A stretch of DNA of 64,000 nucleotides, taken from NCBI GenBank assembly GCA_028867755.1, contig JAGWFT010000002.1:208018-272017 (forward strand), given 5' to 3'. Made by a program: the position numbers and the translations under genes. How positions within the stretch are numbered: position 1 is the stretch's first letter; the number at the start of each line of letters is the position of its first letter. Under the pieces are notes generated by a model. That model ran no database searches, was not told the DNA's origin, and saw nothing but the letters and a program-made list of their open reading frames with translations. The stretch comes from Nitrososphaerota archaeon (lineage in GTDB: Archaea; Thermoproteota; Nitrososphaeria; Nitrososphaerales; Nitrosopumilaceae). Shown one piece after another: positions 24,477 through 52,851 of the stretch.

Positions 24477-25430
24477 TTATTCTATTTGGTCTAATTCCAA
24501 GTCAATTTTTATGCTGGCATCTGGCTCGCTCCAATCAAGAACATTCTCCTTTGGAATCATTCCAAGAGGATCGTACTTGTCAAAACGTGTTTCGCCATCT
24601 ATTGAAGTCAGCAAAACAACCTTTGATCTTTCTCCATTTGCAACAGACAAGCTGACTCGCGTGCTGTCATTGCTAAATATGCCGCTGACTGTACTCACCA
24701 TAGAATTCAAAACACCTATTGGAACTTTGTTACCGCCTACTACATAGAGCAATGCACTCTTGATGCTATTTGGTGGTGCATCCTCGTAAAGCATCTTAAT
24801 CGAATCTCTAAGTGATGTTTCAACATCTGGTATGTCTTTGCTTGTTGACAAGATGTTTGTTTTAGAAGGCAAGGATGAATTTTTCAGAGTGGACACAACA
24901 TGCATCAAAGCACTGTTTGTGATAACATGACAGGCATCAGGAGTAAGATCTGGATTACTGTCAAGTAATGCATCGTTATCAATGATTATTGTACAATCTG
25001 AATTTGCTTTCAGTCTCTTCAATGAAACTCCTGAGAAGAAAATTCTATCCTTTTCGAACTTGAATGGCATTATTCCAAATGAAAGTATGCTCTTTCCTAG
25101 TTCTTTGCCAATCTGGGATACCACCGGGGCTAAAGCAGCGCCAGACTTGCCTGCTAGGTTAGCTACAATCATGATTGTAGAATAGGATTCTAGTCTTTCA
25201 GCAATAGAGTTTCTAACGCCAAGTGAGATGCCTCTGATGAGATATGCTGATGGATTGAGAATAGGACTTGTGTTTATCAAGATCTTGGATGACTCGTGGT
25301 TTAGGTCCTTTGGGTCATGGCTTATTAGAAGACAATCGCATCCAAGTTCTTCCTTTATACTTGTAGCAATTCTGGAACCAGCTCCACCTAATCCAACAAC
25401 TAAGATTGAATCTTGCATCTGAAATTCCAT
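24477..25430 (-). CDS. ftsZ: Divergent thaumarchaeal FtsZ-like protein
   Basis: VVGLGGAGSRIA, PFKFE, IIIDNDALL; signature loop degenerate (LAGKSGAA). Confidence 0.8.
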   Translation of the reverse strand: MEFQMQDSILVVGLGGAGSRIATSIKEELGCDCLLISHDPKDLNHESSKILINTSPILNPSAYLIRGISLGVRNSIAERLESYSTIMIVANLAGKSGAALAPVVSQIGKELGKSILSFGIMPFKFEKDRIFFSGVSLKRLKANSDCTIIIDNDALLDSNPDLTPDACHVITNSALMHVVSTLKNSSLPSKTNILSTSKDIPDVETSLRDSIKMLYEDAPPNSIKSALLYVVGGNKVPIGVLNSMVSTVSGIFSNDSTRVSLSVANGERSKVVLLTSIDGETRFDKYDPLGMIPKENVLDWSEPDASIKIDLELDQIE

Positions 25431-46403: not shown

Positions 46404-46700
46404 ATGTCAGAAGAGTTTCTAAAAGATGTGAAAATACTGCTTGTTTCTGGTAAGGGTGATACAGCAAGGTTACGAGAAATAATAGATTTCATAAAACAAA
46501 AACATCCAGTATACATGTCAGATTACAAATATGTTCAAAGCCTAATTTCTGTAGAATCCCAAGAAAACAAGACAGAAACCAAACCCCCCGAGGGAGTAAA
46601 AGTAGACAATCCTGTAGAACTTCTCAGAATAAGACTTGCAGAAGGGAAAATAACAATCGATGAATTCAGAGAGCTAAAAAAAGCTATAACTGAAATCTAG
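46404..46700 (+). CDS. Small protein with a C-terminal SHOCT-like domain
   Basis: LRIRLAEGKITIDEFRELKKAI; 3 nt after the TPR stop. Confidence 0.75.
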   Translation: MSEEFLKDVKILLVSGKGDTARLREIIDFIKQKHPVYMSDYKYVQSLISVESQENKTETKPPEGVKVDNPVELLRIRLAEGKITIDEFRELKKAITEI

Positions 46701-46770: not shown

Positions 46771-46879
46771 AATCAAGTGCAGTTATATCATTTTCATGTC
46801 TACAACAATCAAGTACAGGCTTTACAATCTTACACTCTCCGCTTAAAGTGGTCTGTTACCTGTAGTATGATGATTAGTA

Positions 46880-48274
46880 TTGTCCAATCTTAATGCTCCT
46901 CTACCACCAGCGCCGGTTCTAATGACCTGTTTTGGCCATTGTGGGATAGGTCTAGGTGCAGAGGCATACAGACGATTGTTAATTGATGTAGGAGCTGATC
47001 CTCTCAAGCCTACGCTAAAAGGAGAGAAGGAGGAGTCACGAGTTTTGAAAAGATACGGCAGTACAATTTTGAGATTTCCAAATTCTTATGGAGGAAACGA
47101 TATACCACTAATTCCAAGAGCATTATTGGTTGATTTAGACCCACGAGCCGCTAATTTGATACTCCAATCATATCCTGATCTGTTTGCACTAAGAGACAAA
47201 CATGTAATTCATGGATCTGGAGGAGCTGCAAGAAACTGGGCAGAAGGAAGAAGCAGATTCATCAATGAAGTAACTAAAAAGTTTGACTTGCAAAAACAAT
47301 TGTCAGGGTTGTCACCTGAACCAGTGAGAGGTTTTACGATACCATTTGCAATGGGTGGGGGTACTGGAAGCTCCTTTGCCAGTGCATTTATGCAATACAT
47401 CAAGAAAGATACCAAAGAGCATGCAACAATAGCATCGTTTGGGCTGTTGCCCGAATTTGGCTGGGATCCAGTTATCTTTGAAGCTGCAGCAATTAATATA
47501 GTCATGAATCTTGAGCACCAGATAAAATATAGTGACTGTTCTATTCTGTTTTCAAACAAGAAGCTAAGAGAGCTTGCCCACAGGCATGAGAAAAAGATTG
47601 AGAAGATACAGTCCATCATTGATGATCTTCCAAAGGAGCATGAGATTGGCTGGAAAGACTACAAAGGTATGAACCTGATTGCCGCAAATGCAATATCCAT
47701 GTTTATTGCATCATTTGCAAGAGAGACAGAATGGGACATGTCAAACTATAGGACATGGCTTGCAACAAAGAAACCAAGATTTGCAGTAGCATGGGTAATT
47801 CCAGTAGTTCCAGAAGAAAGGCAGTGGGGAACAGAGCTAATGTCAGGAGGAAAGGGAAACACTATGGAAGCAATTGTAGATAATATTCACAAGAAAGAGG
47901 ATGCAGTGTTGTTTGACATTGATGAAGGCGATGTCAGAGACAAAGGAGGACAGCGTGATTCCTGTGTCGCGCTGGTAAAAATTAAGGGAGAATTTGATGC
48001 AAAGGAAAGAGAGGTCCTAAAGAATCTGATAAAGGACAGATTCCATATTGAAGACTCGAGAATGATATTTGTCAAGATTCCTATACTGGAGACAGAACAA
48101 GCCAATGTCACCATACTTGTAAACACCAAGGCAATTGGACCCAAGATTTTAGAAATTGCAAGTGAAGCAGAATCTTCTTGGGATGGCTATAAAGAAGAAT
48201 ATGGCAAGTGGGGACTTACAACTGAGGAGTTCAAGCAAAGCCTGATGGATGTCGTTCACCAGTTTAGTGCTTAG
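46880..48274 (+). CDS. Tubulin-family GTPase (artubulin-like archaeal tubulin)
   Basis: GHCGIGLG (cf. GQCGNQIG), IPRALLVDLDP (cf. PRAILVDLEP), GAARNWAEG (cf. GAGNNWAKG), MGGGTGSS signature, FSNKKL, Y..MN; 464 aa. Confidence 0.92.
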   Translation: MSNLNAPLPPAPVLMTCFGHCGIGLGAEAYRRLLIDVGADPLKPTLKGEKEESRVLKRYGSTILRFPNSYGGNDIPLIPRALLVDLDPRAANLILQSYPDLFALRDKHVIHGSGGAARNWAEGRSRFINEVTKKFDLQKQLSGLSPEPVRGFTIPFAMGGGTGSSFASAFMQYIKKDTKEHATIASFGLLPEFGWDPVIFEAAAINIVMNLEHQIKYSDCSILFSNKKLRELAHRHEKKIEKIQSIIDDLPKEHEIGWKDYKGMNLIAANAISMFIASFARETEWDMSNYRTWLATKKPRFAVAWVIPVVPEERQWGTELMSGGKGNTMEAIVDNIHKKEDAVLFDIDEGDVRDKGGQRDSCVALVKIKGEFDAKEREVLKNLIKDRFHIEDSRMIFVKIPILETEQANVTILVNTKAIGPKILEIASEAESSWDGYKEEYGKWGLTTEEFKQSLMDVVHQFSA

Positions 48275-48278
48275 AGGC

Positions 48279-48830
48279 ATGGCAGACTTTAATTTCTTGG
48301 AACAGGTTGCAGCGCAAATCAAGAAAAACAGAAAACAACTAACAGATGTTGAAGACGAACTTTCAACAATAAATTTTAGAATCCACGAGATTCCACTGAA
48401 GATCTCAACTGAATCAAATTTTGCAAAGATGATTGGAGAACAATACAACGATGCCACCAAAGATTTGGAGTCTGCCAAGGAGAGACTTGTGAGAGAAAAG
48501 GAAACTCTAACCACAAAGATAAATGAAGACATATCAACATTTATAGCTGAATTTACATCGCAAGAACTTGTAATCCCACTTGAACTAAATCCAAAGATTG
48601 CTGATGGGAATACTGTTTTCAAATACAAAGGTGGTACCACATTTAAGAACATATTTGATATACTAAGCGAACTTTTGGGACTGAGCTCACCCATACTTGT
48701 AAAAGATGTCATGTTTTCTGCGAATGAAATTGTAATCAAGGTAACAGACGAGTATGAGGCAAAGCAGAAATTTCTAAGCAGTATTAATCAAGTACAGAAA
48801 ACGCTCTCAATAAAAAAAAGACAGGACTAG
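48279..48830 (+). CDS. Coiled-coil protein coupled to the tubulin gene
   Basis: ATG at 48279, 4 nt after the tubulin TAG; two long heptad-rich helices followed by an alpha/beta region. Confidence 0.8.
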   Translation: MADFNFLEQVAAQIKKNRKQLTDVEDELSTINFRIHEIPLKISTESNFAKMIGEQYNDATKDLESAKERLVREKETLTTKINEDISTFIAEFTSQELVIPLELNPKIADGNTVFKYKGGTTFKNIFDILSELLGLSSPILVKDVMFSANEIVIKVTDEYEAKQKFLSSINQVQKTLSIKKRQD

Positions 48831-52002: not shown

Positions 52003-52851
52003 CTAACCGCAACTAAAAGAGCCTGGAGGGCCATTTTTGAGCACGTCTTGGAACTGTGCTGCAGAATACTGCTTTACTACTGAAAATGGAATTACTCCAA
52101 ATATTGGGGCATCAATAGTTGTGGTAATTTTTGCAAGTGTTGGATCAAATGTAGCATTTGCTTGTTTTAGTTTGAATAATGTAGATGTATTTAGTGCAAA
52201 GACGCCATCAACTGTAGACATGGTCTTGGAGGACAACATATTTCCTCCAAATTCAGCTTTTTCTATAATGTCTGAATTGTAAAATGCAGTTATCTCGTAT
52301 TTGTTAAAACTGGTAGGAAAGAATGAAGGATTGCACACATCTGCCTGTATGTGAATTTCTGTGGGAGAGATTTGGTATTGATTTCCATTATTAGGGCGGA
52401 ATTGAAGTGTGCTTGCTGCATAGGAATCAAGCCCTATGTACGCTACAACTATTGCCGCAATCACAATTGATGCTATTACAATTTTTTTTCTTGAATATGT
52501 GTTTCTAATCTTGTTTGTTTCTGCATCCTCATTGAGATTCTCTTGAGGTGTTTCATCTTTGGGCGATACTATGGTGCCGAGAGGTTCTTCTTGTTTGTTA
52601 GTGGATTCATTCTCGGAAAGATCTGAAACCACAGTCGTGTCTATCTTTGACTGTTCCTGTGATTCTCCAGAAACTTCTTGTAAATAGTTCTGATCAGAAA
52701 CATCAAGGAACTTGCCTTGTTGTAGTGTATCATACATATGCTGCAACCTTACGACGTCTCCTTTTTTAGAATCAATAAGTGACTGAATTAGTCTAATTGT
52801 ATCATCTGACATTCCGTTCAAGTCAGATCGACTCAATTTAAAGGGTTCCAC
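52003..52851 (-). CDS. Single-TM hypothetical protein with an exported LEA-2-like beta domain
   Basis: N-terminal helical module, acidic linker, TM helix, then CNPSFFP..F; fold assignment is tentative. Confidence 0.65.
   Translation of the reverse strand: MEPFKLSRSDLNGMSDDTIRLIQSLIDSKKGDVVRLQHMYDTLQQGKFLDVSDQNYLQEVSGESQEQSKIDTTVVSDLSENESTNKQEEPLGTIVSPKDETPQENLNEDAETNKIRNTYSRKKIVIASIVIAAIVVAYIGLDSYAASTLQFRPNNGNQYQISPTEIHIQADVCNPSFFPTSFNKYEITAFYNSDIIEKAEFGGNMLSSKTMSTVDGVFALNTSTLFKLKQANATFDPTLAKITTTIDAPIFGVIPFSVVKQYSAAQFQDVLKNGPPGSFSCG

What the first reader, a model, noticed from the sequence alone, without database searches (positions are those of the whole stretch)
48279..48830. Coiled-coil partner gene 4 nt downstream of tubulin: candidate two-gene filament system
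Seen: TAG-AGGC-ATG coupling; a predicted long helical hairpin (about residues 5-95) followed by an alpha/beta domain and a basic KKRQD end. Known, from memory: artubulin genes were described next to a Snf7/ESCRT-III-like gene. This ORF has a hairpin-like N-terminus but no obvious Pro-rich MIM tail. Inference: a dedicated tubulin adaptor, nucleator or membrane-remodelling partner, giving an uncharacterised tubulin-plus-hairpin module.
Basis: partly seen in the sequence, partly recalled or inferred. Interest (0 to 1): 0.75.

Follow-up and report, generated by a model that had tools for sequence, protein, structure and literature searches.

The report
Conserved partner gene of archaeal artubulin
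A 183-residue protein of unknown family sits 4 bases after the tubulin-like "artubulin" gene of this ammonia-oxidising archaeon and follows that gene in every artubulin-bearing genome searched, so it is very probably artubulin's dedicated working partner, though it is not an ESCRT-III protein and binding is untested.

Summary
Window 48279-48830 (+) is a real gene under purifying selection (dN/dS 0.05-0.12). It starts 4 nt after the stop of a Pfam-confirmed tubulin-family gene (46880-48274). AlphaFold2 (pLDDT 91.9) gives a helical hairpin (residues 4-51 and 60-92) followed by a small alpha/beta domain and a basic tail.

- **Linkage:** in a 401-genome sample of the order, all 78 artubulin-bearing genomes carry an orthologue. 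It lies on the same strand, 2-15 nt downstream in the 34 loci measured. The flanking genes differ between lineages.
- **Co-loss:** where artubulin was deleted, in two lineages, the partner is a frameshifted or truncated remnant while the neighbours stay intact.
- **Not ESCRT-III:** there is no Snf7 HMM match and hhalign gives 0.3% probability. An alpha/beta domain replaces helices 3-5. The genuine Snf7 gene lies upstream of artubulin and only in Nitrosarchaeum.
- **Family:** no Pfam or PDB relative was found. Matches are confined to Nitrososphaerales. Distant homologues live without artubulin: a long form in one genus and a short form in one family.

Best reading: a stoichiometric artubulin-binding accessory subunit or adaptor. 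Binding is inferred, not shown. The scan reached the same reading on another genome (e1-2570963). None of the papers I found describes the gene.

The parts
46795..46850 (+). Conserved non-coding block upstream of the artubulin gene. It holds two ACAATC repeats and a TTAAAG TATA-like box (46843-46848), about 33 nt before the TTG start. Candidate operon promoter/operator.
   Evidence: Alignment of 10 Nitrosotalea-like loci shows long invariant runs in otherwise diverged intergenic DNA. Promoter function is inferred, not tested.
46880..48274 (+). Artubulin gene (464 aa, TTG start preceded by a conserved GTGAT Shine-Dalgarno-like motif). First gene of the pair.
   Evidence: Pfam Tubulin PF00091 at 64.1 bits, cut-off 33. 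The profile hits Asgard and gamma/alpha/beta tubulins in the PDB. Orthologues are 52-94% identical in 78 of 401 genomes.
48272..48281 (+). Stop-start junction TAG-AGGC-ATG (4-nt spacer).
   Evidence: Read directly. The equivalent spacer is 2-15 nt in 34 orthologous loci, several with GAGG/GGAGG in the spacer.
48279..48830 (+). Partner gene (183 aa plus stop), a new protein family.
   Evidence: 274 homologues, all named 'hypothetical'. dN/dS is 0.05-0.12. No Pfam or NCBIfam family.
48288..48554 (+). Antiparallel helical hairpin 'arm', residues 4-92 (helix 4-51, loop 52-59, helix 60-92). The motif PLKxxTESxFAKMIG lies near the tip (P39, F48 and G53 are invariant).
   Evidence: AF2 model at pLDDT 83-97 over this region. 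Conservation. Net charge is acidic, -1 to -11, in orthologues.
48576..48827 (+). C-terminal alpha/beta domain, residues 100-183 (strand-strand-helix-strand-strand-strand-helix), ending in the basic tail IKKRQD. The motif LSELLGLSxP is conserved.
   Evidence: AF2 models of the whole protein and of the domain alone, pLDDT 91.9 and 90.2. The best structural matches are weak: archaeal TBP Z 6.0, RpoL/Rpb11 Z about 4. This domain alone is shared with 130-150 aa homologues in family f15.

Best explanation
Window 48279-48830 is the second cistron of a two-gene artubulin operon. It encodes a protein built as a long acidic helical-hairpin arm on a small alpha/beta base.

The most likely mechanism runs as follows. 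The pair is transcribed from the conserved promoter upstream of artubulin. The partner is translated by coupling or re-initiation 4 nt after the tubulin stop, so it is made in roughly fixed proportion. It then binds artubulin directly as a dedicated accessory subunit, most plausibly decorating, cross-linking or anchoring the artubulin polymer. BtubC does this for BtubA/B and ZapA for FtsZ.

Shown here: tight adjacency, strict co-occurrence, co-inheritance, co-loss and purifying selection. Inferred: co-transcription, direct binding, and the adaptor/stabiliser role.
For: 1. Linkage. All 78 artubulin-bearing genomes of 401 sampled in the order (22 genera, 5 families) hold a full-length orthologue. 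It lies directly downstream on the same strand, with a 2-15 nt spacer in the 34 loci measured. The only apparent exceptions are contig breaks (G113, G249, G037).
2. Only the pair is conserved. Flanking genes differ between lineages.
3. Co-inheritance. The tubulin and partner trees share 21 of 30 splits, against a mean of 0.24 under label shuffling. Distance correlation is r=0.97. Relatedness alone explains part of this.
4. Co-loss. In G199 and G382 the artubulin gene is cleanly deleted between an intact Snf7 (85% identity) and intact flanks. The partner is left in two to three frames with no ORF over 42 aa. In G307 only residues 140-183 remain.
5. No genome searched has an orthologue of the tubulin-linked clade without an artubulin somewhere in the genome. 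The orphan copy in G003 co-exists with a second, intact cassette.
6. The gene is real and constrained: dN/dS 0.05-0.12, with a confident fold.
7. A conserved promoter-like block lies upstream of artubulin, and there is no room for one between the genes.
Against: - Family members can function without artubulin. A full-length homologue (33-38% identity) occurs in 7 of 11 genomes of family f9, which have no artubulin and only a distant, unlinked FtsZ-like gene.
- Short homologues that keep only a truncated N-terminal helix and the alpha/beta domain occur in 64 of 111 f15 genomes without artubulin.
- Decay of the partner after artubulin deletion could simply reflect loss of the shared promoter rather than functional dependence.
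- No RNA, protein or interaction data exist. No recognised tubulin-binding motif or fold was found.
- Artubulin itself has never been shown to polymerise, in any of the papers read.
Confidence: 0.62

Rival explanations
1. Monomer-directed assembly factor. The partner binds unpolymerised artubulin as a folding/holding cofactor or as a sequestering/assembly-control factor. This would resemble tubulin cofactor A, prefoldin arms or stathmin in eukaryotes, or TubY for TubZ. It would not decorate a filament.
For: The same genomic evidence applies as for the best explanation. The protein is a rod-like acidic hairpin, an architecture shared from general knowledge with TBCA, prefoldin and stathmin. Weak Prefoldin_2 Pfam hits appear in 2 of 30 members (E 0.002), and archaeal prefoldin is among the hairpin matches (Z 8.1). 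Both are at noise level.
Against: There is no specific similarity to any of these families. Every hairpin match has Z 8-9, like unrelated hairpins. A fixed 1:1 co-translation does not separate this reading from the filament-adaptor reading.
Confidence: 0.2
2. Operon passenger with a tubulin-independent function. The family is an older Nitrososphaerales protein with its own role, seen in the f9 and f15 homologues. Its linkage to artubulin would reflect only shared transcription or joint transfer of a cassette.
For: Homologues exist without artubulin in f9 and f15, in different gene contexts: a radical-SAM gene and an AMP-binding enzyme, or a DAG-kinase-like gene and a dual-specificity phosphatase. 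In the family tree the f9 clade falls outside the tubulin-linked clade, with weak support of 55%. The orphan copy in G003 is intact.
Against: Linkage persists over divergence down to 52% tubulin identity and 25% partner identity while every other neighbour changes. Such persistence is not expected of a passenger. The partner is not retained after artubulin loss in G199, G382 and G307, although a useful independent gene would be expected to be kept or re-promoted.
Confidence: 0.12
3. ESCRT-III/PspA-like membrane-remodelling protein that polymerises on membranes and cooperates with artubulin.
For: There is a helical hairpin of ESCRT-III-like length. CHMP4B hairpin scores Z 9.2 and Snf7 core Z 8.7. 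The literature links artubulin with Snf7 (PMC3349469).
Against: - No PF03357 hit at E<=1. The true artubulin-adjacent Snf7 scores 37.7 bits.
- hhalign probability is 0.3%.
- The hairpin is followed by an alpha/beta domain, not alpha3-alpha5.
- Equal or better Z values go to unrelated hairpins such as p85 iSH2 (9.3) and designed hairpins (9.0).
- The Snf7 of the literature is a separate upstream gene, present only in Nitrosarchaeum-like genomes.
Confidence: 0.04

Closest known systems
BtubC (Bklc), third gene of the Prosthecobacter btubAB operon
   Same: A non-tubulin protein encoded directly after tubulin gene(s) in a patchily distributed prokaryotic tubulin cassette. From general knowledge, it binds and stabilises the polymer. 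Here the same operon logic applies: a partner 2-15 nt downstream in all 34 loci measured, in genomes that all carry both genes.
   Different: BtubC is a TPR protein. This protein is a helical hairpin plus an alpha/beta domain with no TPR and no sequence or fold relation. Binding is shown for BtubC and not for this protein.
ZapA / ZapB and TubY: coiled-coil accessory proteins of FtsZ and TubZ
   Same: Small proteins that combine a coiled-coil rod with a small globular part (ZapA). They act on a tubulin-superfamily polymer and are often operon-linked (TubY). This comparison rests on general knowledge.
   Different: No homology. A weak ZapB Pfam hit in 1 of 30 members (E 0.008) is coiled-coil noise. 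The topology here is an intramolecular hairpin N-terminal to the globular domain. Oligomeric state is unknown.
ESCRT-III / Snf7 (archaeal CdvB)
   Same: The alpha1-alpha2-like helical hairpin has similar length. A real Snf7 gene neighbours artubulin in Nitrosarchaeum (PMC3349469).
   Different: It fails the HMM and profile tests and lacks alpha3-alpha5. Snf7 stays intact when artubulin is deleted, whereas this gene decays.
Tubulin cofactor A / prefoldin / stathmin (eukaryotic and archaeal rod-like tubulin binders)
   Same: Elongated helical hairpin or rod that, from general knowledge, grips tubulin monomers or dimers.
   Different: No sequence similarity at E<10 in the PDB profile search. Structural matches are no better than to unrelated hairpins. 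These proteins have no C-terminal alpha/beta domain of this kind.
TBP half-domain and RpoL/Rpb11 dimerisation fold (C-terminal domain only)
   Same: A two-layer alpha/beta sandwich with strand-helix-strand...helix order. Best matches are archaeal TBP (Z 6.0, rmsd 3.3, 76 residues aligned) and RpoL/Rpb11 (Z about 4; Foldseek probability up to 0.72).
   Different: The scores are below the level that indicates more than a common arrangement. Sequence identity is 8-14%. No function can be transferred.

Membership tests
ESCRT-III / Snf7 (PF03357) | Significant match to the Snf7 family HMM | tested here: not met
   No PF03357 hit for P0001 at E<=1, and none among the 30 family members. The genuine artubulin-adjacent Snf7 of a Nitrosarchaeum-like genome scores 37.7 bits against a cut-off of 27.3.
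ESCRT-III / Snf7 (PF03357) | Profile-profile similarity to thaumarchaeal Snf7/CdvB | tested here: not met
   hhalign of A4 (33 partners) against A5 (4 Snf7 proteins): probability 0.3%, E 0.22, 21 columns.
ESCRT-III / Snf7 (PF03357) | N-terminal alpha1-alpha2 helical hairpin | tested here: met
   Helices 4-51 and 60-92. CHMP4B hairpin Z 9.2 and Snf7 core Z 8.7. Unrelated hairpins score the same, so this feature does not discriminate.
ESCRT-III / Snf7 (PF03357) | Helices alpha3-alpha5 packing on or releasing from the hairpin (all-helical core) | tested here: not met
   Residues 100-183 form a strand-strand-helix-strand-strand-strand-helix domain at pLDDT above 90.
ESCRT-III / Snf7 (PF03357) | C-terminal MIM for Vps4/CdvC binding | tested here: inconclusive
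   The tail is short and basic (IKKRQD). No MIM-like motif is visible by eye, and no tool here scores MIMs.
Artubulin-linked partner family (unnamed; noted earlier in this scan as e1-2570963) | Encoded immediately downstream of an artubulin gene on the same strand | tested here: met
   4-nt spacer in the window. 2-15 nt in 34 loci. 78 of 78 artubulin genomes hold it.
Artubulin-linked partner family (unnamed; noted earlier in this scan as e1-2570963) | About 180 aa, full-length alignment to family members with the conserved motifs (LE..A start, FAKxIG tip, LGLxxP, A-K in the last helix) | tested here: met
   Alignments A1 and A4. Invariant residues are E8, L28, P39, F48, G53, L70, S94, P100, L133, G134, P138, V144, A161 and K162.
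Tubulin/FtsZ superfamily (for the upstream gene) | Match to Pfam Tubulin GTPase domain above the gathering score | tested here: met
   PF00091 at 64.1 bits, cut-off 33. The best PDB matches are Asgard and eukaryotic tubulins.
TBP-like / RpoL-like alpha/beta fold (C-terminal domain) | Structural match clearly above background | tested here: inconclusive
   Best Z is 6.0 (TBP), with about 4 for RpoL/Rpb11. Foldseek E is 0.1 or worse. An Atlas TM of 0.67 is found only to a Nitrososphaerota hypothetical cluster, probably the family's own short form.

The most novel reading that the evidence does not exclude
The hairpin protein is an obligate non-tubulin subunit of the artubulin polymer, acting as co-assembling partner, nucleator or cap. 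Artubulin would then never work alone. The two-gene cassette would constitute a third, self-contained cytoskeletal system of ammonia-oxidising archaea beside Cdv/ESCRT-III and FtsZ. The cassette would have recruited its partner from an older Nitrososphaerales-specific protein family, whose short and tubulin-free forms still exist.
Probability: 0.2. Interest if true: 0.8.

Novelty: new variant of a known kind. Interest (0 to 1): 0.6.

Why it matters
Artubulin is cited in debates on the origin of eukaryotic tubulin. In the papers found here, nothing is known about its assembly, localisation or function. Discussion of its context has centred on an adjacent Snf7 gene.

This analysis shows that Snf7 is a lineage-specific neighbour, whereas the small hairpin protein is the invariant companion. 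Any biochemical or structural work on artubulin should therefore co-express both genes. A failure of artubulin to polymerise alone could be explained by the missing partner.

The gene also defines a new order-restricted protein family with a confidently predicted fold that has no clear solved relative. It offers a natural evolutionary series for asking how a cytoskeletal accessory protein is recruited: a short form, a long tubulin-free form, and a tubulin-linked form.

Tried and rejected
- **Complex prediction.** Artubulin alignment A3, GTP and partner alignment A4 scored 0.00 against a mark of 0.32. The tool's verdict is 'no answer', so this counts neither for nor against binding.
- **Family and structure searches.** Pfam and NCBIfam gave only sub-threshold coiled-coil noise: HMMR_N, Dam1, ASRP, Prefoldin_2, ZapB, PspA in single members. 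The PDB profile search gave only coiled-coil and designed-hairpin matches. Foldseek against the PDB found nothing at E<=0.001 for the whole model or the C-terminal domain. The ESM Atlas by features gave no usable hit.
- **Mobile-element test.** The partner profile found nothing in IMG/VR viral contigs. The artubulin profile found only two distant tubulin-like hits at 27-28% identity. There is no GC anomaly around the locus.
- **Earlier T7-loop notes.** I tried to check the notes that the artubulin T7 loop lacks the catalytic acid. HMMER aligned only residues 13-237 to solved tubulins, so that loop could not be placed. I make no claim on it.
- **Fused forms.** The only longer protein found (P0198, 407 aa) is a singleton. 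In it an artubulin lacking about 45 C-terminal residues runs in frame into the partner from about residue 9. I treat it as a deletion or assembly artefact, not as Rosetta-stone evidence.
- **Third conserved gene.** The flanks are not conserved beyond genus level.
- **Literature.** The 14 papers that mention artubulin and the accession-number searches gave no description of this gene. Santana-Molina et al. 2023 remark only that neighbours of archaeal tubulin-like genes are often unknown coiled-coil proteins.

Full report
**What is at the coordinates**

The + strand carries an ORF at 46880-48274 (464 aa, TTG start). It matches the Pfam Tubulin GTPase domain at 64.1 bits against a cut-off of 33. 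Its profile hits Asgard, gamma, alpha and beta tubulins among solved structures. This is an artubulin, the thaumarchaeal tubulin-like protein of Yutin and Koonin 2012 (PMC3349469).

Its stop codon TAG (48272-48274) is followed by AGGC and then by the ATG at 48279. That ATG opens a 183-codon ORF ending at 48830. A longer reading from an ATG at 48249 exists. It is not supported, because all 33 aligned orthologues begin at the position of 48279. Names attached to close homologues place the genome in or near Nitrosotalea.

**The gene is real**

The protein has 274 homologues at E<=1e-3 in the 5.8-billion-protein collection. Every one that carries a name is called 'hypothetical'. In the 1.8-billion representative library, only 31 clusters at 50% identity match. 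Pairwise dN/dS among Nitrosotalea-like orthologues is 0.05-0.12, compared with 0.01-0.06 for the tubulin.

AlphaFold2 on a 30-sequence alignment gives mean pLDDT 91.9 and pTM 0.79:
- helix 4-51, a short loop, and helix 60-92, which together form an antiparallel hairpin;
- then a strand-strand-helix-strand-strand-strand-helix domain up to residue 182;
- then a short basic tail.

**Linkage to artubulin**

I searched 401 genomes drawn evenly from the order with both proteins. Artubulin (E<=1e-10) is present in 78 genomes, spanning 22 genera and 5 families. Every one of the 78 also has a full-length homologue of the partner.

In all 34 loci that I extracted, the partner lies on the same strand directly after the tubulin stop, with a spacer of 2-15 nt. 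These loci cover tubulin identity of 94% down to 52% and partner identity of 88% down to 25%. Several spacers contain GAGG or GGAGG.

The three apparent exceptions are contig ends:
- G113, where the two genes are on different contigs at contig ends;
- G249, where the partner is at the start of its contig;
- G037, where the contig ends right after the partner.

Nothing else in the neighbourhood is conserved across lineages. The two gene trees share 21 of 30 splits, against a mean of 0.24 under label shuffling. The pair has thus been inherited as a unit, although common descent alone gives much of this signal.

One genome in these tallies and one of the 34 loci (G271, L005) is unpublished. Removing it changes 78 to 77 and 34 to 33. 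No other claim rests on it, and it was left out of alignments A3 and A4.

**Co-loss**

Three genomes gave only short partner fragments and no artubulin. In G199 and G382 (Nitrosarchaeum-like) the synteny is dCMP deaminase, Snf7, [gap], partner remnant, mechanosensitive-channel-like gene. The Snf7 is intact at 85% identity and the flanks are 81-95% identical. The artubulin gene is gone. The partner survives only as pieces in two or three reading frames, with no ORF longer than 42 aa.

In G307 (Nitrosotalea-like) the TPR gene and the two downstream genes of the window are present. The small upstream gene, the artubulin and partner residues 1-139 are deleted, leaving residues 140-183.

So at least two independent losses removed or inactivated both genes, while neighbours, Snf7 included, stayed under selection. 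A caveat applies: deleting artubulin also removes the presumed shared promoter, which alone could silence the partner.

In G003 an intact 'orphan' partner copy lies next to a trypsin-like peptidase with no tubulin remnant. That genome keeps a second, complete artubulin-partner cassette, and its relative G021 has two complete cassettes. In the genomes searched, no member of the tubulin-linked clade is found in a genome without artubulin.

**Transcription and translation**

Ten Nitrosotalea-like loci share a conserved non-coding block upstream of artubulin, at window 46795-46850. It contains two ACAATC repeats and a TTAAAG box about 33 nt before the start codon. A conserved GTGAT lies just before the TTG. 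This looks like an archaeal promoter with an operator and a Shine-Dalgarno site.

Between the two genes there are only 4 nt. A bicistronic transcript with coupled translation is therefore the simplest reading, but it is inferred.

**It is not ESCRT-III**

The literature's Snf7 is a different gene. In Nitrosarchaeum-like genomes, including the one matching N. koreense MY1, a 206-aa protein scoring 37.7 bits on PF03357 lies directly upstream of artubulin. The order there is Snf7, artubulin, partner. No Snf7 is adjacent in the Nitrosotenuis-like genomes. None is adjacent in this genome either, whose only weak Snf7 match is on another contig. This agrees with the remark on Nitrosotenuis uzonensis in PMC3835317.

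The partner itself fails the defining tests:
- it has no PF03357 hit;
- hhalign against the Snf7 alignment gives 0.3% probability;
- after the hairpin it has an alpha/beta domain rather than helices alpha3-alpha5.

Its hairpin aligns to the CHMP4B and Snf7 hairpins with Z 9.2 and 8.7. It aligns equally well to p85 iSH2 (9.3), a designed hairpin (9.0), ExsD, HlyD and many others. That shows only that it is a hairpin.

**The fold and the wider family**

The C-terminal domain modelled alone (pLDDT 90.2) has no convincing solved relative:
- archaeal TBP, Z 6.0, rmsd 3.3 A, 76 residues aligned;
- RpoL/Rpb11, Z about 4;
- Foldseek E of 0.1 or worse.

The best Atlas match (TM 0.67) is a 128-aa hypothetical cluster from Nitrososphaerota, probably the family's own short form.

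A family profile found matches in a 401-genome sample of the phylum only within this order. Inside the order there are two tubulin-free forms:
- **Long form in f9.** In 7 of 11 genomes of one genus, a full-length homologue (33-38% identity) lies between a radical-SAM gene and a 93-aa gene followed by an AMP-binding enzyme. These genomes have one FtsZ-like gene far away and no artubulin.
- **Short form in f15.** In 64 of 111 genomes, 130-150-aa proteins keep the N-terminal LE..A helix start and the alpha/beta domain but have a much shorter hairpin. In two of the three loci inspected they lie next to a DAG-kinase-like gene and a dual-specificity phosphatase.

The start of helix 1 is conserved together with the C-terminal domain in all forms. 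I infer that these two parts make up the globular base and that the hairpin is a variable arm projecting from it. I could not inspect contacts in the model.

In a maximum-likelihood tree rooted on the short forms, the f9 clade falls outside a single tubulin-linked clade, but support is weak at 55%. This fits recruitment of an older lineage-specific protein into the artubulin cassette. It also shows that the family as such does not require artubulin.

**How it most likely works**

The evidence supports functional dependence on artubulin and roughly fixed co-production. Prokaryotic tubulin-superfamily systems typically come with dedicated operon partners: BtubC with BtubA/B, TubR and TubY with TubZ, and ZapA or SepF with FtsZ (general knowledge).

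I therefore judge direct binding to artubulin the most likely mechanism. A filament-associated role (decorating, bundling or anchoring) ranks ahead of a monomer-directed role (holding or sequestering).

Sequence features do not decide between them:
- the hairpin is acidic (net -1 to -11);
- the base is neutral to slightly basic, with a basic tail that tubulin-free homologues also have;
- artubulin has no acidic C-terminal tail;
- the partner has no transmembrane segment and no DNA-binding motif;
- the most conserved positions lie near the hairpin tip (P39, F48, G53) and in the LGLxxP helix of the base. These are the first candidates for an interface.

The structure-based complex test gave no verdict.

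**Comparison with what is known, and novelty**

The operon logic is that of known tubulin-plus-accessory cassettes, but the protein is unrelated to any known accessory factor. It belongs to no Pfam or NCBIfam family.

None of the 14 papers that mention artubulin describes it. Neither do the papers returned by the other searches. Yutin and Koonin list a 'conserved hypothetical protein' in their neighbourhood figure. Santana-Molina et al. note in general that neighbours of archaeal tubulin-like genes are unknown coiled-coil proteins.

An earlier follow-up in this scan (e1-2570963) reached the same reading from another genome. I re-derived it independently here and added five points:
- the co-loss cases;
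- the two tubulin-free forms;
- the order-restricted distribution;
- the promoter block;
- the finding that Snf7, unlike the partner, survives artubulin loss.

I rate it a new variant of a known kind, of moderate-to-high interest to archaeal cell biologists, because it changes how artubulin should be studied.

Noticed in passing
window 46795-46850: Strongly conserved non-coding block upstream of artubulin in 10 Nitrosotalea-like loci. It has the form ATGTCTAnAACAATCAAG ... ACAATCTT ... TTAAAG, with two ACAATC repeats about 20 nt apart. A conserved GTGAT follows before the TTG start. This is a candidate promoter plus regulator-binding site.
   Followed up: partly
window 24957-25409 (- strand): A second tubulin-superfamily gene (PF00091 at 61.5 bits, open frame 331 aa), presumably the regular FtsZ. 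It lies about 22 kb from the artubulin cassette in the same window.
   Followed up: no
L024 5395-6015 (-), L042 5089-5709 (-); L045 1558-2181 (-), L046 2999-3610 (+): A genuine Snf7/CdvB paralogue sits directly upstream of artubulin only in Nitrosarchaeum-like genomes. It remains intact (85% identity) in the two genomes where artubulin is deleted and the partner has decayed. Its function therefore does not depend on artubulin.
   Followed up: partly
P0198 (407 aa, single metagenomic sequence): An in-frame fusion. The artubulin C-terminal half, lacking its last 45 or so residues, is joined to the partner from about residue 9. The partner part matches that of locus L026 over the stretch compared. 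It is probably a deletion at an ..LE/..LE microhomology or an assembly artefact.
   Followed up: partly
window 46404-46700 (+); L025 5419-5763 (-); L026 2419-3081 (-): A small gene upstream of artubulin (98 aa, with a weak SHOCT-like C-terminus). It carries an N-terminal 'GDxxRL...SDYKYV' motif that recurs upstream of artubulin in two other genera and in another window ORF (52003-52851, - strand). It is deleted together with artubulin in G307.
   Followed up: partly
L014 5116-5766 (+) and L015 4601-5149 (-); L014 5789-6070; L019 6408-6725: The tubulin-free long homologue in family f9 lies between a radical-SAM gene and a 93-aa protein of no Pfam family (MDERIR...GRxYNSFYYQSR). A similar small protein lies 1.3 kb from the orphan partner copy of G003.
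   Followed up: no
L016 4677-5066 (+), L018 5102-5500 (-), L017 5142-5558 (-): Short 130-140 aa homologues (alpha/beta domain with a short hairpin) in family f15. In two of three loci they neighbour a DAG-kinase/YegS-like gene and a dual-specificity phosphatase.
   Followed up: partly
L047 and L048 (G021); L019 and L029 (G003); L049 4392-4934: One family (f4) has two diverged artubulin-partner cassette types. G021 carries both. G003 carries one complete cassette plus an orphan partner of the other type. The partner in G053 (an 85%-complete MAG) has one in-frame stop.
   Followed up: partly
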